Positions 16,538 to 61,290 are shown, counted from the stretch's first letter. The stretch is DNA of 64,000 nucleotides from Mycobacteriales bacterium (GCA_035476575.1 DATILL010000074.1:10073-74072), one strand, 5' to 3'. A program made the numbers and translations. The notes: a model not told the origin generated them from the sequence alone.

Positions 16538-16655
16538 GCCCGTGTGGTCACCTTTCGTTGCCCACAGACCCCAAGAGGTCACCACAACGCCGGTAGGTGA
16601 CCACACGGGGCACGAGCCGAACGACAGGTCACCACAACGCCGAGAGGTGACCTCA
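16538..16655. repeat. GGTNACC-box intergenic repeat locus A (5 boxes, mixed orientation)
   Basis: Box starts are at 16546, 16577, 16596, 16627 and 16646 (spacing 31/19/31/19). There is a 14-bp perfect inverted repeat, CCCGTGTGGTCACC (16539-16552) with GGTGACCACACGGG (16596-16609). The last box directly follows the secA stop codon. Confidence 0.9.
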
Positions 16656-19493
16656 GTCGAGGGGGGCGGCGCCGGGGGCACCGTGGCAGCGCTTGTACTT
16701 CTTGCCCGAGCCGCAGGGGCAAGGCGCGTTGCGGCCCGGCGTGGCCGTGCCGGGCACGGTGGCGGTGCCAGCCTGGGGACGCTCCGGCTCGGCGGCATCC
16801 AGCGTCGGGGCGGAGTACCGCAGGTCCGCCGCCGGGCGGGACTGCCGGTCCAGCCCCTTGGCGCTGACCCGCGGCTGCGACCGGACCGGCTCTGCGGCCG
16901 GTCCGGCCGGATCGGCCGGACCGGCCAGGGCAGCCGGCACCGAGGTGTCGCCGGCCAGCGCCACCACCTCGGCCTCGGCGGCTGCCTCAGCCTCCGGCTC
17001 GCCCACCTGCACCTCGATGTTGAACAGGAAGCCGACCGACTCCTCCTTGATGCCGTCCAGCATCGCGGCGAACATGTCGAAGCCCTCGCGCTGGAACTCC
17101 ACCTCAGGGGTCCGCTGGGCCATCGCGCGCAGCCCGATGCCCTCCTGCAGGTAGTCCATCTCGTACAGGTGCTCGCGCCACTTGCGGTCCAGCACGGAGA
17201 GCAGCACCCGGCGCTCCACCTCGCGCACCACCTCGGCTCCCAGAGCCTCCTCGCGTTCGTCGTAGGCCCGCTGGGCGTCCGCGCGCACCAGCTCGACCAG
17301 GAGCTCGGCGGACAGGTCGCTCTTCTCCCCGCCCGCCTCGGCGATCACGCCGTCCACCGTCAGCGACACCGGGTAGAGCGTCTTCAGCGCGGTCCAGAGC
17401 TGGTCGAGGTCCCAGTCCTCCGGGTAGCCGTCGGCACAGGCACCCTCGACGTAGGCGACCACCACGTCGTCCACCATGTGCCGGACCTGCTCATGCAGGT
17501 CGGCGCCCTCGAGGATCTTGCGGCGCTCGGCGTAGATGACCTCGCGCTGGCGGTTCATCACCTCGTCGTACTTCAGGATGTTCTTGCGGATCTCGAAGTT
17601 CTGCTGCTCGACCTGGGTCTGCGCCGACTTGATCGCCCGGGTGACCATCTTGGACTCGATCGGCTCGTCGTCCGGGATGTTCAGCCGGGTCATGATCATC
17701 TCGACCGCACCGGCGTTGAACCGCTTCATCAGGTCGTCGGTCAGCGACAGGTAGAACCGCGACTCCCCCGGGTCACCCTGCCGGCCGGACCGGCCGCGGA
17801 GCTGGTTGTCGATCCGGCGCGACTCGTGCCGCTCGGTGCCGAGCACGTACAGCCCGCCGGCCTCCCGGACCTCCTCGCCCTCCACCTCGGACCGCTTCTT
17901 GGCGTCCTCTACGGCGGCCGGCCAGGCGGCCTCGTACTCCTCGGGGGTGTCCACCGGGGACAGCCCCCGGCTGCGCAGGTCGAGGTCGGCGAGGAACTCG
18001 AAGTTGCCGCCCAGGATGATGTCGGTACCGCGGCCGGCCATGTTGGTGGAGACGGTGACCGAGCCCTTGCTACCGGCCCGGGCCACGATCGAGGCCTCCT
18101 TCTCGTGGTACTTCGCGTTCAGCACCTCGTGCGGAACACCCTGGCGCAGCAGCAGCGCGGACAGCAGCTCGGACTTCTCCACGCTGGCGGTGCCCACCAG
18201 GACCGGCTGGCCCTTGGCGACGCGTTCGGTGATGTCGTTCACCACCGCGGCGAACTTGGCCTCCTCCGTCTTGTAGATGACGTCGGAGTGGTCGGCCCGG
18301 ATCATCGGCTTGTTGGTCGGGATGGACACCACGCCCAGCTTGTAGATCTGGGACAGCTCGGCGGCCTCGGTCTGCGCCGTACCGGTCATCCCGGACAGCT
18401 TGTCATAGAGCCGGAAGTAGTTCTGCAGGGTGATCGTGGCGAGCGTCTGGTTCTCCTGCTTGATCTCGACGCCTTCCTTGGCCTCGATCGCCTGGTGCAG
18501 CCCCTCGTTGTAGCGCCGGCCGTGCAGCACCCGGCCGGTGTGCTCGTCGACGATGAGCACCTCGCCATTGGTGACGATGTAGTCCTTGTCCCGCTTGAAC
18601 AGCTCCTGCGCCTTCAGCGCGTTGTTCAGGTAGCCGACCAGCGGGGAGTTGACCGCCTCGTAGAGGTTGTCAATGCCGATCTGGTCCTCGACGAAGCCGA
18701 CGCCCTCCTCCGTGACGCCGACCGTGCGCTTGCCGTCGTCCACCTCGTAGTGCATGTCACGTTTCATCAACGGCGCGATCCGGGCGAACTCCGAGTACCA
18801 CCGGGCGGAGTGCTCGGCGGGCCCGGAGATAATCAGCGGGGTACGCGCCTCGTCGATCAGGATCGAGTCGACCTCGTCCACGATCGCGTAGTTGTGCCCG
18901 CGCTGGACACACTCCTCCAGCGCCCAGGACATGTTGTCGCGCAGGTAGTCGAAGCCGAACTCGTTGTTGGTGCCGTAGGTGATGTCCGCGTGGTACATCT
19001 TCTGCCGCTCGGCCGGCCGCATCTGCGACAGGATCACCCCGACCTCCAGGCCGAGGAGGTGGTGCACCCGGCCCATCCACTCCGAGTCGCGCTTGGCCAG
19101 GTAGTCGTTGACCGTGACGATGTGAACTCCCTTACCGGACAGCGCGTTCAGGTACGCCGGAAGGGTGCCGACCAGGGTCTTGCCCTCGCCGGTCTTCATC
19201 TCCGCGACGTTGCCGAAATGCAGGGCGGCGCCACCCATGAGCTGCACGTGGTAATGCCGCTGGCCGAGGGTGCGCTTGCCCGCCTCCCGAACCGTAGCGA
19301 ACGCCTCCGGCATGATCTGGTCCAGCGACGCGCCCGCGGCCAGGCGGGCCCGAAGCTCGTCGGTCTTGGCGCGCAGCTCGGCGTCGGTGAGGTCGACGAA
19401 GTCGGGCTCGATCGCGTCGATATGGTCGGCGATGGCCTTCAGCCGGCGGACGATCTTCCCCTCACCGGCACGCAGGATCTTGGCGAGTACCAC
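16653..19493 (-). CDS. secA: Preprotein translocase ATPase SecA
   Basis: 946 aa with Walker A MKTGEGKT and [19 protein letters not shown], plus the C-terminal zinc site [17 protein letters not shown] start. Confidence 0.97.
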
Positions 19494-19628
19494 GGCGTAC
19501 GTTCAGCTCCTCGGGATGTGCGGCTGCCGCCATCGTATGCGCGGCGCGCACGGGCGTGGCAACGCCCGCGGCACCGTCCGGACGCCGCGGCCCCCGGACG
19601 GGGGCGGTAAGGCTGGCAGGATGGCGGC

Positions 19629-59995: not shown

Positions 59996-61099
59996 CTACA
60001 GATCGTCGTAGAGACGCCACAGAGCGCGGCCGGACGCCGTCCAACTGAACTCCGCCGCACGTCGCCGGCCCCGCTCGACCAGGCCGGCGCGTAGCTCGCC
60101 GTCGTGCACGACCTGGGCCAGCGCCTCGGCCAGGGCCGCGTGGTCGTCCCGGGGGACGACGAGCGTCGCCCCGCCGCCGACCTCGACCAGCGCTGGCGCG
60201 TCCGAGCTGACCACCGGCACCCCGGCCGCCATCGCCTCCAACGGCGGCAGCCCGAACCCCTCCGCCCGGCTGGGCGCGGCCAGCACGGTGGCCCGGGACA
60301 GCACCACCGCCAGGTCGGCGTCCGGGAGGCGTCCGAGCAGCCGGACCCGGTCCGGACGCAGGCCGAGCTCGGCCGCCTTGGCGAGCGGGTCGACGCCGCC
60401 CCAGCCGGGCTGGCCGACCACGACCAGGGGCAGGTCGGGCGCCTTGGGTGAGGCGAGCGCGGCGAGCAGCACGTCCAGGCCCTTGCGTGGCTCCAGGGTG
60501 GCCAGGCTCAGCAGATAGCCGCCGTCCGGGAGGCGCAGCCGGACGGCCCGCTCGGCGGCGTCCGGAGGTGGGGTGAGGCCGGCGCTGACGCCCTCGCTGA
60601 TCACGGCGATCCTGCGGGCGGCGGCCGGGAAGATCGCTGCCAGCTCGGCGGCCACGGCATGGGTGGGTACGACGATCCGGTCGGCCGCGCGGGCGGCGTA
60701 CCCGATCGCCCGCTGGTGCCAGGCGACGCCGCGCGGGGTGAGCGTCCCGGGGTGAGTCCAGGGCACCGTGTCGTGCACGGTCACGACGAGCGGCCGGCCG
60801 CTGGCCCGGCGTGGGGCCAGCGGGGTCGGGGCGTGCACGAGGTCACCGCGCGGGGTCGGGCCGAGGCCGCGCTCCCAGGCGATGACCAGTGCCCGCCTGG
60901 GCAGCGGCAGGCGGTGCGGGCCGCCGGCGCTGGGGATCCTCGCTGCGGCCGGGTCGCGGTGGTACGCCGTCCAGCCGGTGACCGTGCTGCCGGGAGGGGC
61001 CGTGGCGGCAAGGGCGGTGGCCAGCTCGCGGGCGTACCGGCCGGTGCCGCCGGGGACCGGGGCCAGGCACTGCTCGAGCACGATGGCGAGACGGGTCAC
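59996..61099 (-). CDS. Family 4 (GT-B) glycosyltransferase
   Basis: Has GGTGRYARELA and EGFGLPPLEAMAAGVPVV. GTG start. Confidence 0.85.
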   Translation of the reverse strand: MTRLAIVLEQCLAPVPGGTGRYARELATALAATAPPGSTVTGWTAYHRDPAAARIPSAGGPHRLPLPRRALVIAWERGLGPTPRGDLVHAPTPLAPRRASGRPLVVTVHDTVPWTHPGTLTPRGVAWHQRAIGYAARAADRIVVPTHAVAAELAAIFPAAARRIAVISEGVSAGLTPPPDAAERAVRLRLPDGGYLLSLATLEPRKGLDVLLAALASPKAPDLPLVVVGQPGWGGVDPLAKAAELGLRPDRVRLLGRLPDADLAVVLSRATVLAAPSRAEGFGLPPLEAMAAGVPVVSSDAPALVEVGGGATLVVPRDDHAALAEALAQVVHDGELRAGLVERGRRRAAEFSWTASGRALWRLYDDL

Positions 61100-61135
61100 G
61101 GCCGGTCACGATAGCCGCCCGACCCACCTCCCCGC

Positions 61136-61290
61136 CGCCTGTGTGGTCACCTCAACGCCGTGTGGTCACCTATGGGGCGCCGCGGACCACGTGTGGTCAC
61201 CACAACGCCGAAAGGTGACCACACGGGCGCCGCAGACAACGACAGGTCACCACAACGCCGAAAGGTGACCACACGGGGGGACCGTGGTGA
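61136..61290. repeat. GGTNACC-box intergenic repeat locus F (6 boxes plus one degenerate box)
   Basis: Box starts are at 61145, 61164, 61195, 61214, 61245 and 61264 (spacing 19/31/19/31/19). The 33-mer GGTCACCACAACGCCGAAAGGTGACCACACGGG occurs at 61195 and 61245. The full palindrome TGTGGTCACCACA is at 61192-61204. Confidence 0.95.

What the first reader, a model, noticed from the sequence alone, without database searches (positions are those of the whole stretch)
16538..61290. Dispersed intergenic repeat family built from phased GGTNACC boxes (strict 19/31-bp spacing, 50-bp period) at six loci
Six intergenic loci share the same building blocks: 16538-16655, 31599-31737, 34181-34262, 41735-41825, 51099-51240 and 61136-61290. 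The core is a 7-bp palindrome GGTNACC, where N is only C or G. It is extended on one side as GGTSACCACA or its complement TGTGGTSACC. Between boxes is an ACGCCG/CGGCGT-type linker and a CGGGC...CAGACAACGAA-type tail.

I located 30 cores. At every locus, consecutive core starts are separated by exactly 19, 31, 19, 31 bp. Examples are 16546/16577/16596/16627/16646 and 31605/31624/31655/31674/31705/31724. Two more are 51107/51126/51157/51176/51207/51226 and 61145/61164/61195/61214/61245/61264. The 50-bp period is preserved even where unit orientation flips. At flips the full 13-bp palindrome TGTGGTSACCACA appears (31602-31614, 61192-61204).

The central N of 19-bp-spaced neighbours is complementary in only 6 of 14 pairs, so a hairpin between neighbouring boxes is not conserved. 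Each box keeps its own dyad symmetry. That pattern fits an array of DNA-level recognition sites for a dimeric protein better than a conserved RNA fold.

The loci lie in three convergent and three divergent intergenic regions, about one per 10 kb. Conceptually this resembles enterobacterial REP/BIME elements and mycobacterial MIRU minisatellites, but I do not recognise the sequence as a described element.
Basis: seen in the sequence. Interest (0 to 1): 0.8.

Follow-up and report, generated by a model that had tools for sequence, protein, structure and literature searches.

The report
Phased palindrome-box repeat arrays between genes
An uncultured soil actinomycete carries many intergenic tandem arrays of a 50-bp unit built around two copies of the palindrome GGT(C/G)ACC at fixed 19/31-bp spacing, a previously undescribed relative of the REP/BIME class of bacterial repeats that looks like a protein-binding DNA array rather than an RNA or hairpin element.

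Summary
The window holds six intergenic arrays with 30 GGTSACC boxes at exact 19/31-bp spacing.

The family is genome-wide in this organism, a 'Mycobacteriales bacterium' metagenome-assembled genome (MAG). I found 148 arrays in 0.96 Mb of its contigs. Three syntenic relatives (SecA 81-83% identical) and 1.4 Mb of other loci, mostly actinobacterial, have none. Nothing matched in Rfam, plasmids or the literature.

Main features:
- Non-centre box bases are about 99.7% conserved. The centre is C or G and almost never A or T.
- Centres of neighbouring boxes do not covary.
- Spacing almost never changes, although 11 linker bases vary freely.
- Arrays grow by local tandem duplication.
- Orientation switches are almost always head-to-head. 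There are no target-site duplications and no decayed copies.

Best reading: a new BIME-like dispersed repeat that acts as phased double-stranded-DNA sites for a dimeric protein. The protein and the spreading mechanism are unknown.

An unexpected lead is a recently expanded family of 13E12-type DUF222-HNH endonuclease genes (at least 14 paralogues). Nine copies or remnants directly abut arrays.

Novelty: new variant of a known kind. Interest is moderate.

The parts
16539..16652 (.). Array 1. Boxes at 16546 (reverse, preceded by TGT), 16577, 16596, 16627 and 16646. It is one reversed half-unit followed by two forward units. It lies between the converging DUF6459 gene (ends 16510) and secA (stop codon 16653-16655), and the last box touches the secA stop.
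   Evidence: unit-HMM hits E 2e-13 and 2e-12
31599..31737 (+). Array 2. Three forward units with boxes at 31605 (full 13-bp palindrome TGTGGTGACCACA), 31624, 31655, 31674, 31705 and 31724. All later pairs are (C,C). It lies between a diverging carboxyltransferase gene (minus strand) and a MoxR-type AAA gene (plus strand).
   Evidence: period 50, 2.6 copies, 93% matches; z -1.75
34181..34262 (-). Array 3. One and a half reverse units with boxes at 34193, 34212 and 34243. It lies between the converging DUF58 gene (ends 34156) and a SpoIIM-family gene (stop at 34271).
   Evidence: E 2.6e-16
41735..41825 (+). Array 4. Two forward units with boxes at 41739, 41758, 41789 and 41808, all (C,C). It lies between a converging gene of unknown family (ends 41730) and the mannose-6-phosphate isomerase gene (stop at 41855).
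51099..51240 (.). Array 5. One reverse unit (boxes 51107, 51126) joined head-to-head to two forward units (boxes 51157, 51176, 51207, 51226). It lies between the diverging FbiC-like radical-SAM gene (minus strand) and a PAS-GGDEF gene (plus strand).
   Evidence: (z -7.2 / -5.9)
61136..61290 (.). Array 6. One reverse unit (boxes 61145, 61164), a 13-bp palindromic box at 61195, then forward units (boxes 61214, 61245, 61264). It lies between a diverging GT4 glycosyltransferase gene (minus strand) and a plus-strand gene.
   Evidence: period 50, 2.7 copies; z -5.4 / -6.5

Best explanation
This is a lineage-specific, high-copy family of non-coding intergenic repeats of the REP/BIME class.

The unit is 50 bp. 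Its forward-strand consensus is CAACGAnA-GGTCACC-ACAACGCCGAgA-GGTGACC-ACACGGG followed by about 11 variable bases. It therefore carries two copies of a 7-bp palindromic box 19 bp apart, and the next box follows 31 bp later.

What is shown:
- The boxes and their spacing are the constrained features.
- Arrays of 1 to about 5 units expand and contract locally by tandem duplication.
- Arrays occupy every kind of intergenic gap and usually start about 24 nt after a stop codon.
- Orientation switches are head-to-head, so the 'tail' ends (box-ACACGGG) face outwards.

What is inferred:
- Each box is read on double-stranded DNA by a symmetric, dimeric, sequence-specific protein that tolerates either orientation of a central G:C pair.
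- The fixed 19/31 spacing reflects cooperative or phased binding of several dimers.
- The family spread to new gaps through a trans-acting enzyme encoded elsewhere in the genome.
- It is selfish or domesticated DNA, not a set of operators for particular genes.
For: The family is real and genome-wide.
- Those stretches belong to the same MAG as the window. DUF222 paralogues annotated 'Mycobacteriales bacterium' sit on contigs whose lengths equal Ga0307470 contigs, and one partial copy lies on the window's own NCBI contig.
- I counted 148 arrays in 0.96 Mb.

The boxes and spacing are constrained.
- Box-to-box distances: 19 bp 363 times, 31 bp 260 times, 50 bp 479 times. Off-by-one distances are rare: 18 bp 3, 20 bp 1, 30 bp 6, 32 bp 4.
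- A box lying between two boxes 50 bp apart is intact in 472 of 479 cases. Its centre is C in 231, G in 241, T in 2 and A in 0.
- Between adjacent units of one array, non-centre box sites differ at 0-4% and linker sites at 20-77%.

There is no support for a hairpin.
- Box centres do not covary, and the double change (G,C) is depleted: 3 observed against 18.6 expected.
- Head-to-head junction arms are less complementary than random pairings, 6.5 against 7.36 matches of 12.
- Array flanks are not complementary in general.
- The all-(C,C) array folds at z = -1.75.

Arrays grow by local duplication.
- The 31-bp-linker distance is 0.093 within arrays and 0.30 between arrays.
- 54% of within-array linker pairs are identical, against 0.2% of between-array pairs.

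The family is lineage-specific, and at least one array is an insertion.
- Syntenic loci of relatives with SecA 81-83% identical have none.
- The secA-DUF6459 gap is 17 bp in L190 and 142 bp in the window.
- A unit HMM finds nothing in 1.44 Mb of other loci.

The arrays are not gene-specific operators.
- Contexts are 30 convergent, 26 divergent and 45 co-directional gaps.
- The median distance is 24 nt from a stop codon and 108 nt from a start codon.
- Orientation shows no preference relative to transcription.
Against: - No binding protein is identified and nothing here tests binding.
- The boxes are flanked asymmetrically: AnA on one side and ACA on the other, with both TGT and ACA present in only 24 of 794 boxes. 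The unit strand is A-rich and T-poor. Both point to polarity, which a purely symmetric dimer site does not need.
- Arrays with flips or (C,G) pairs would fold very stably as single strands, z -4 to -7. A single-strand intermediate in spreading is therefore not excluded.
- The high box conservation could partly reflect young copies rather than selection in place.
- The sample of loci was chosen with a pattern that needs one perfect box-linker-box.
- The spreading mechanism is entirely inferred. No target-site duplications and no transposase were found.
Confidence: 0.55

Rival explanations
1. Classical REP/REPIN element. The box-linker-box pair, or the head-to-head dimer, acts as a single-stranded DNA hairpin that a REP-associated tyrosine transposase (RAYT, an IS200/IS605-like Y1 HUH enzyme) recognises, cuts and re-inserts.
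For: - The elements are extragenic, high-copy and lineage-specific, and they leave no target-site duplications, as in HUH transposition.
- The consensus unit (C,G) is a perfect 7-bp inverted repeat around a 12-nt loop.
- Mixed arrays fold with z -4 to -7 on both strands.
- About a quarter of arrays are inverted dimers, like REPINs.
Against: - Half of the units, 154 of 305, have a mismatched centre, and compensatory (G,C) units are depleted: 3 observed against 18.6 expected.
- Junction arms are anti-correlated.
- The consensus shows no GTAG/GGAG-type guide motif.
- No homologue of E. coli RayT was found in 0.96 Mb, best tblastn E 0.12. This covers only part of the genome.
- Most arrays are direct tandem repeats, not alternating.
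Confidence: 0.15
2. Partner elements of the expanded 13E12-type DUF222-HNH endonuclease family. The HNH protein binds or nicks the boxes, and the arrays are its cis sites: element ends, homing targets, or non-autonomous derivatives.
For: - There are at least 14 DUF222(-HNH) paralogues at 68-100% identity in this MAG, and the next relatives drop to 53%. None occurs in 1.44 Mb of other loci.
- In seven copies (L110, L113, L127, L152, L166, L173, L176) the head end of an array joins a conserved roughly 55-nt hairpin 'cap' and the gene's 5' leader at the same nucleotide.
- In L107 and L144 an array head abuts a gene remnant that begins near codon 413-418.
- In all nine cases the head faces the gene. 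This is the same polarity as the head-to-head rule in solo arrays.
Against: - Seven of the nine junctions are one event inherited by duplication.
- Intact copies in L111 and L178 have no adjacent array.
- No array lies at the 3' side of any copy.
- The 64-kb window has six arrays and no DUF222 gene.
- DUF222 homologues checked in other organisms had no upstream array: no tandem repeat in L194. In Catellatospora the gene calls leave about 50 bp upstream, and that sequence was not scanned.
- The loci were chosen for containing arrays, which inflates co-occurrence.
Confidence: 0.12
3. RNA-level element. The arrays are transcribed as 3' UTRs and act as terminators, mRNA stabilisers or small RNAs.
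For: - Arrays start a median of 24 nt after stop codons.
- Several arrays fold stably.
- E. coli REPs are known to stabilise upstream mRNA (my own knowledge).
Against: - 26 arrays lie in divergent promoter gaps.
- Orientation has no bias relative to transcription.
- There is no covariation.
- Some arrays do not fold better than shuffles.
- There is no Rfam match, even at E <= 0.1 on a tested array.
- A C/G-only centre without a compensating partner makes no sense for RNA pairing.
Confidence: 0.08
4. Operator sites of one transcription-factor regulon.
For: The core is palindromic, and three window arrays lie between divergent genes.
Against: - About one array per 6-10 kb is far too many for a regulon.
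- 30 arrays lie between convergent 3' ends.
- Neighbouring genes are functionally unrelated: secA, manA, fbiC, a GGDEF gene, a glycosyltransferase, PIN, TipA and a Na/H exchanger.
- The family is absent from syntenic relatives.
Confidence: 0.04
5. Artefact of metagenome assembly.
For: The window comes from a short-read assembly, and contigs appear to break at repeats.
Against: - The same family appears in two assemblies, a megahit 'k141' contig in ENA and JGI's own assembly. It occurs in more than 100 distinct unique-flank contexts, and unit sequences are locus-specific.
- Unit copy numbers in individual arrays could still be mis-assembled.
Confidence: 0.01

Closest known systems
E. coli REP / BIME elements (especially BIME-2 tandem clusters)
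   Same: Both are high-copy and strictly extragenic. Both are built from a short palindromic module plus defined linkers and are arranged in clusters of variable copy number. Both are often close to 3' ends of genes and are restricted to a lineage.
   Different: - The module here is a 7-bp (at most 13-bp) perfect palindrome, not a 35-nt imperfect stem-loop.
- Modules are mostly in direct orientation with a single head-to-head switch, not strictly alternating.
- There is no compensatory variation.
- Spacing is fixed to the base pair.
- There is no sequence similarity, and no Rfam or plasmid match.
REPIN-RAYT systems (Pseudomonas and others)
   Same: About a quarter of arrays contain an inverted dimer. 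There are no target-site duplications. The family persists in the chromosome at hundreds of copies.
   Different: The dimer arms are anti-correlated rather than complementary. No GTAG-type motif is present. No RAYT was found in the 0.96 Mb available.
Mycobacterial MIRU / VNTR minisatellites
   Same: Both are actinobacterial intergenic tandem direct repeats of about 50 bp. Copy number changes by local duplication.
   Different: MIRUs sit inside operons and are in phase with overlapping stop and start codons. These arrays lie in convergent, divergent and co-directional gaps and contain internal palindromic boxes and orientation switches.
Pneumococcal BOX elements (boxA-boxB(n)-boxC)
   Same: Both are modular dispersed intergenic elements in which one module is tandemly repeated a variable number of times.
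   Different: The taxa are unrelated and there is no sequence similarity. BOX elements are thought to act through stable RNA or DNA secondary structure, which is not conserved here.
Iteron and partition-site arrays (for example heptad arrays bound by omega protein, parC/parS repeats)
   Same: Both are series of short protein-recognition motifs at fixed spacing. Direct and inverted orientations both occur, and function depends on phasing.
   Different: Those arrays occur once per replicon, next to the genes of the binding protein. Here there are hundreds of arrays across the chromosome with no linked binder gene.
REP13E12 / 13E12-repeat (DUF222-HNH) family of Mycobacterium tuberculosis
   Same: The same protein family (Pfam DUF222 plus an HNH motif) is multi-copy here and is physically linked to nine arrays.
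   Different: REP13E12 is a roughly 1.4-kb gene-bearing repeat. I know of no short phased box arrays associated with it, and DUF222 homologues checked in other organisms lack them.

Membership tests
REP/BIME/REPIN (RAYT-associated) | High-copy and confined to extragenic DNA | tested here: met
   148 arrays in 0.96 Mb. 101 of 111 classifiable arrays are intergenic, and the other 10 overlap only the ends of called genes. In the window, unit-HMM hits occur only in the six gaps.
REP/BIME/REPIN (RAYT-associated) | The unit is a 20-40-nt imperfect palindrome whose stem is kept by compensatory changes | tested here: not met
   Box centres are complementary in 151 of 305 units, against 182 expected. 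Junction arms are less complementary than random pairings. The (C,C) array folds at z = -1.75.
REP/BIME/REPIN (RAYT-associated) | Conserved GTAG/GGAG-type tetranucleotide beside the hairpin | tested here: not met
   The position matrix from 343 units shows no such motif. The conserved flanks are CAACGAnA and ACACGGG.
REP/BIME/REPIN (RAYT-associated) | A RAYT (Y1 HUH transposase) gene in the same genome, flanked by the repeats | tested here: inconclusive
   tblastn and phmmer with E. coli RayT against the window plus 105 loci gave a best E of 0.12. Only about 1 Mb of the genome was available.
REP/BIME/REPIN (RAYT-associated) | Clusters of modules in alternating orientation (BIME) | tested here: not met
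   92 arrays are purely direct, and about 26 have a single reverse-to-forward switch. Flips at the 31-bp linker are head-to-head 58 times and tail-to-tail 5 times.
MIRU-type minisatellite | Tandem direct repeats of 40-100 bp in intergenic DNA | tested here: met
   The period is 50 bp.
MIRU-type minisatellite | Located within operons, overlapping stop and start codons of flanking genes | tested here: not met
   30 arrays lie in convergent gaps and 26 in divergent gaps. The median distance is 24 nt from a stop codon and 108 nt from a start codon.
MIRU-type minisatellite | Copy-number polymorphism between strains | not testable with these tools
   No second strain or assembly of the window region could be fetched. 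Within-array identity indicates ongoing duplication.
MITE (DDE-transposon derived) | Terminal inverted repeats plus target-site duplication | tested here: not met
   Outward TGT...ACA ends exist in mixed arrays. No direct repeat of 3-9 bp was found at any offset in 65 arrays.
CRISPR array | Identical repeats of 24-48 bp separated by unique spacers of similar length | tested here: not met
   The intervals are 12 and 24 nt and are mostly conserved sequence. Only about 11 nt vary.
Any Rfam RNA family | A match to a curated covariance model | tested here: not met
   No hits at gathering score in the window. No hits at E <= 0.1 in L152 9000-12200, which includes an array.
Transcription-factor regulon operators | Sites lie upstream of the regulated genes | tested here: not met
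   Many arrays lie between convergent 3' ends, and the neighbouring genes are unrelated in function.

The most novel reading that the evidence does not exclude
The arrays and the expanded 13E12-type DUF222-HNH genes form a two-part system. It would be an HNH-endonuclease counterpart of the RAYT-REPIN partnership. In it the protein recognises GGTSACC boxes at fixed spacing on double-stranded DNA and, by nicking, drives unit duplication and seeding of new arrays. This would give the long-unexplained 13E12/DUF222 family of actinobacteria, including M. tuberculosis, a first mechanistic role.
Probability: 0.12. Interest if true: 0.85.

Novelty: new variant of a known kind. Interest (0 to 1): 0.55.

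Why it matters
Dispersed intergenic repeats such as REP, BIME, BOX and MIRU elements are widespread. They are understood mechanistically only where a partner enzyme (RAYT) or a binder (gyrase, IHF) is known.

This family offers an unusually clean signature: an invariant 7-bp palindrome, a centre that is only C or G, base-pair-exact 19/31 spacing and free linkers. 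That signature points to recognition of double-stranded DNA rather than of a hairpin. It is therefore a testable case of a REP-like family that works differently.

If the link to DUF222-HNH genes is functional, it would also give a handle on the 13E12 repeat proteins of mycobacteria. In practical terms, the arrays are candidate VNTR markers and likely break points in assemblies of this soil lineage.

Tried and rejected
The second scan, with the AdoHcyase protein, reached only relatives at or below 70% identity, and none carries the family.
- A viral-contig scan gave one chance match.
- blastn against plasmids found nothing.
- Literature searches by sequence string, and by GGTCACC plus intergenic and palindrome terms, found nothing relevant.
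- A comparison between assemblies to look for copy-number variation was not possible. The JGI copy of the window contig could not be fetched, and exact-protein look-ups returned only the window's own contig.
- Target-site duplications: none.
- Complementary flanks: not general. Three arrays (L091, L133, L181) do sit in longer palindromes.
- Hairpin covariation between boxes 19 bp or 31 bp apart, and across head-to-head junctions: none, or negative.
- RAYT search: negative but not exhaustive.
- Genes flanked by arrays on both sides are unrelated: PIN, TipA/MerR, a Na/H exchanger and DUF559/AbiEi.
- A general DUF222-array association in other organisms was not seen.
- Restriction-modification target: GGTNACC is the BstEII site (my own knowledge). 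The site is not avoided in coding DNA. Methylation could not be examined, so this idea is neither supported nor excluded.
- CRP-, LexA-, DnaA- and PHO-box-like sites were considered from memory. Their spacing or sequence does not fit.

Full report
**Observation**

The six loci are exactly as described. GGTSACC occurs 87 times in the 64-kb window, against 18.5 +/- 3.7 in dinucleotide-preserving shuffles. Thirty of these boxes lie in six intergenic arrays in which consecutive boxes are 19 or 31 bp apart without exception. Tandem Repeats Finder reports a 50-bp period at 31605-31734 and 61141-61277.

The other 57 boxes are unphased. Fifty of them lie in coding sequence, and 43 of those sit in a single codon frame (G|GTS|ACC, Val-Thr). 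Codon usage therefore explains them. The three-convergent, three-divergent gene context holds with my GC3-based gene calls and with the collection's own calls. A profile HMM of the unit finds significant matches in the window only at the six loci, and it finds no decayed copies elsewhere.

**Source organism**

The window is part of ENA contig ERZ27256868:k141_5162479 (77.8 kb, 73% G+C). Its SecA protein is NCBI HSV66089.1, 'MAG TPA: Mycobacteriales bacterium'. The next closest SecA in 5.8 billion proteins is only 83% identical, so this is an uncultured lineage without sequenced close relatives.

**The family is genome-wide**

A pattern scan of JGI metagenomes returned 105 stretches (0.90 Mb, 72% G+C). 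These contigs belong to the same MAG as the window. DUF222 paralogues annotated 'Mycobacteriales bacterium' lie on contigs whose lengths equal Ga0307470 contigs, and a partial copy lies on the window's own NCBI contig. Apart from the repeats, no gene region is shared between the window and these loci.

Taken together, the window and these loci hold 148 arrays of 2-11 boxes, most commonly 6 boxes, which is three units. This sample is biased towards arrays, because the loci were selected with a pattern that needs one perfect box-linker-box. The window itself is unbiased and gives about one array per 10 kb.

**Anatomy**

The forward-strand consensus, from 343 oriented units, is CAACGAnA-GGTCACC-ACAACGCCGAgA-GGTGACC-ACACGGG followed by about 11 variable bases.

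- Spacing: box-to-box distances are 19 bp (363 times), 31 bp (260) and 50 bp (479). Off-by-one distances are rare: 18 bp 3, 20 bp 1, 30 bp 6, 32 bp 4.
- Box conservation: a box lying between two boxes 50 bp apart is a perfect GGTSACC in 472 of 479 cases. Its centre is C in 231, G in 241, T in 2 and A in 0.
- Relative constraint: between adjacent units of one array, non-centre box positions differ at 0-4%, linker positions at 20-42%, and linker positions in diverged pairs at up to 77%.
- Flanks: boxes carry a one-sided ACA extension, with AnA rather than TGT on the other side. Only 24 of 794 boxes have both TGT and ACA.
- Strand composition: the forward strand is A-rich and T-poor, with A 25% and T 8.5%.

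**Polarity**

Within arrays, orientation changes are almost always head-to-head at the 31-bp linker, 58 cases against 5 tail-to-tail. As a result, 194 array ends are 'tails' (box-ACACGGG facing outwards) and 59 are 'heads'. By linker orientation, 92 arrays are purely direct and about 26 have the form (reverse)m(forward)n.

At head-to-head junctions the two arms are less complementary than randomly paired arms, 6.5 against 7.36 matches of 12. Two head variants, CAACGAnA and CCCCAAGA, tend to pair with each other.

**Hairpin versus double-stranded site**

Oriented centre pairs of boxes 19 bp apart are (C,G) 148, (C,C) 104, (G,G) 50 and (G,C) 3. Complementary pairs number 151, against 182 expected under independence, and the compensatory double change is depleted. 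Pairs 31 bp apart are complementary in 46 of 162 cases. Array flanks are not complementary in general.

As RNA, arrays with flips fold at z -4 to -7 on both strands, but the all-(C,C) array at 31599-31737 folds at z -1.75 and -2.5. Foldability is therefore a by-product of inverted copies, not a conserved property.

A centre that must be a G:C pair in either orientation, with no compensating partner, is what a symmetric dimer reading double-stranded DNA would produce. It has no rationale under RNA or single-stranded pairing. This is an inference, and no binding experiment exists.

**Dynamics**

The 31-bp-linker distance is 0.093 within arrays and 0.30 between arrays. Fifty-four per cent of within-array linker pairs are identical, against 0.2% of between-array pairs. 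Arrays therefore grow by local tandem duplication.

Among recently diverged units, C<->G changes are unusually common, 20 of 52. Whether they lie at box centres was not checked. I cannot explain the excess.

No target-site duplications of 3-9 bp exist at any offset.

**Genomic context**

Arrays lie in 30 convergent, 26 divergent and 45 co-directional gaps. Ten apparent overlaps are with the ends of called genes. The first box lies a median of 24 nt after a stop codon and 108 nt from a start codon. Orientation shows no preference relative to transcription. Neighbouring genes are functionally unrelated.

**Distribution**

Three relatives with SecA 81-83% identical and conserved synteny around secA have no unit in 13-23 kb. 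In L190 the secA-DUF6459 gap is 17 bp, against 142 bp in the window, where array 1 fills it. That array is therefore an insertion in this lineage.

The family was also absent from every other collection searched:
- Eighty loci from other genomes, mostly actinobacterial (1.4 Mb), have none, either by spacing test or by HMM.
- There is no match in Rfam at gathering score, or at E <= 0.1 on a tested array.
- The PLSDB plasmid collection has no match.
- Viral contigs gave only one chance hit.
- The full-text library has nothing relevant.

**An unexpected association**

Several array heads are followed by the same sequence: a roughly 55-nt 'cap' containing the hairpin CCCATCGACGAGGTCGATGGGG, then the conserved 5' leader of a gene. 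The gene encodes a DUF222 domain plus an HNH motif, the 13E12-repeat family type.

Seven copies share an identical array-cap junction: L110, L113, L127, L152, L166, L173 and L176. In L107 and L144 an array head directly abuts a gene remnant that begins near codon 413-418. The L107 fragment is a pseudogene. The family has at least 14 paralogues at 68-100% identity in this MAG, and the next relatives are at 53%. None occurs in 1.44 Mb of other loci.

Against a functional link:
- Seven of the junctions are one inherited event.
- Intact copies in L111 and L178 have no array, and none has an array at its 3' side.
- The window has arrays but no DUF222 gene.
- A DUF222 homologue in another organism (L194) has no upstream tandem repeat. 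In Catellatospora the called genes leave only about 50 bp upstream, and that sequence was not scanned.

I treat the association as a lead, with probability about 0.12, not as the explanation.

**Comparison with known systems**

The family works most like REP/BIME elements: extragenic, modular, clustered and lineage-specific. It fails several of their defining tests. It has no imperfect stem-loop kept by compensation, no GTAG-type motif and no alternating orientation. No RAYT was found in about 1 Mb, although that search covers only part of the genome.

It shares the 50-bp tandem intergenic habit of MIRUs but not their operon-embedded, codon-overlapping position. It is not a MITE, since it has no target-site duplications. 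It is not a CRISPR array or a regulon.

In logic, the phased short sites resemble iteron or partition-site arrays, but they are dispersed in hundreds of copies.

**Verdict**

This is a real, previously undescribed, lineage-specific dispersed repeat family. The best-supported mechanism is arrays of phased double-stranded-DNA recognition sites for a dimeric protein, expanding by tandem duplication (confidence 0.55). The binder, the mode of dispersal, and whether the arrays are selfish or useful to the host remain open.

Limits of this analysis:
- The locus sample was selected for arrays.
- Gene calls are heuristic.
- Unit counts come from short-read assemblies.
- No close relatives were available for orthologous comparison.

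Noticed in passing
L110, L113, L127, L152 (about 11290-11520), L166, L173, L176; also L107 9467-9904 and L144 11500-11974: An expanded family of 13E12-type DUF222-HNH endonuclease genes, with at least 14 paralogues at 68-100% identity. Seven copies share an identical junction of array head, a roughly 55-nt hairpin cap and the 5' leader. Two truncated remnants start at about codon 413-418 directly after an array.
   Followed up: partly
window 36776-38038 and 38156-39631 (both minus strand): Two adjacent S-adenosylhomocysteine hydrolase paralogues, 420 aa and about 490 aa. The closest genome matches of the short form are at or below 70% identity and are spread over many phyla (Aquificaceae, Nitrospinaceae, Acidobacteriota and others), which suggests horizontal origin.
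   Followed up: no
R-to-F junctions in 58 arrays, for example window 16553-16576 and 51133-51156: Two variants of the unit 'head', CAACGAnA and CCCCAAGA, pair preferentially with each other at head-to-head junctions. The junction is therefore less palindromic than chance. This may be avoidance of long perfect palindromes.
   Followed up: partly
L091 11050-11225, L133 11025-11150, L181 5229: A few arrays are embedded in flanks that are themselves 10-20-nt perfect or near-perfect inverted repeats. An example is CCCATCCCCTTCACCGG...CCGGTGAAGGGGATGGG in L091. Most arrays are not embedded this way.
   Followed up: partly
within-array unit comparisons (window plus L084-L188): Among recently diverged units of one array, C<->G transversions make up 20 of 52 differences. 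This is an unusual spectrum. Whether they lie at box centres was not checked, and I have no explanation.
   Followed up: no
L128 7349-8398 (minus strand): A lower-G+C (68%) gene with AbiEi_1 and DUF559/MTES_1575 endonuclease-like domains lies between two arrays about 1 kb apart. It may be an accessory or mobile gene.
   Followed up: partly
window 56442-56491, 53712-53760, 27230-27270: Perfect or near-perfect short tandem repeats lie inside called genes: 18 bp x 2.8, 12 bp x 4.1 and 15 bp x 2.7. They are unrelated to the box family.
   Followed up: no
DUF222 leader, for example L111 9780-9900 (minus strand): The 5' leader of the DUF222 genes is conserved and relatively A+T-rich. In L111 a roughly 60-nt segment (ACTACTCTGGGCGCTCGCCGC..CACTCAC.GAAGTTTCTCA) is duplicated in tandem. 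In M. tuberculosis the 13E12 genes belong to the LexA regulon, according to the title and abstract of PMC3381160 listed. I did not check for an SOS box here.
   Followed up: no
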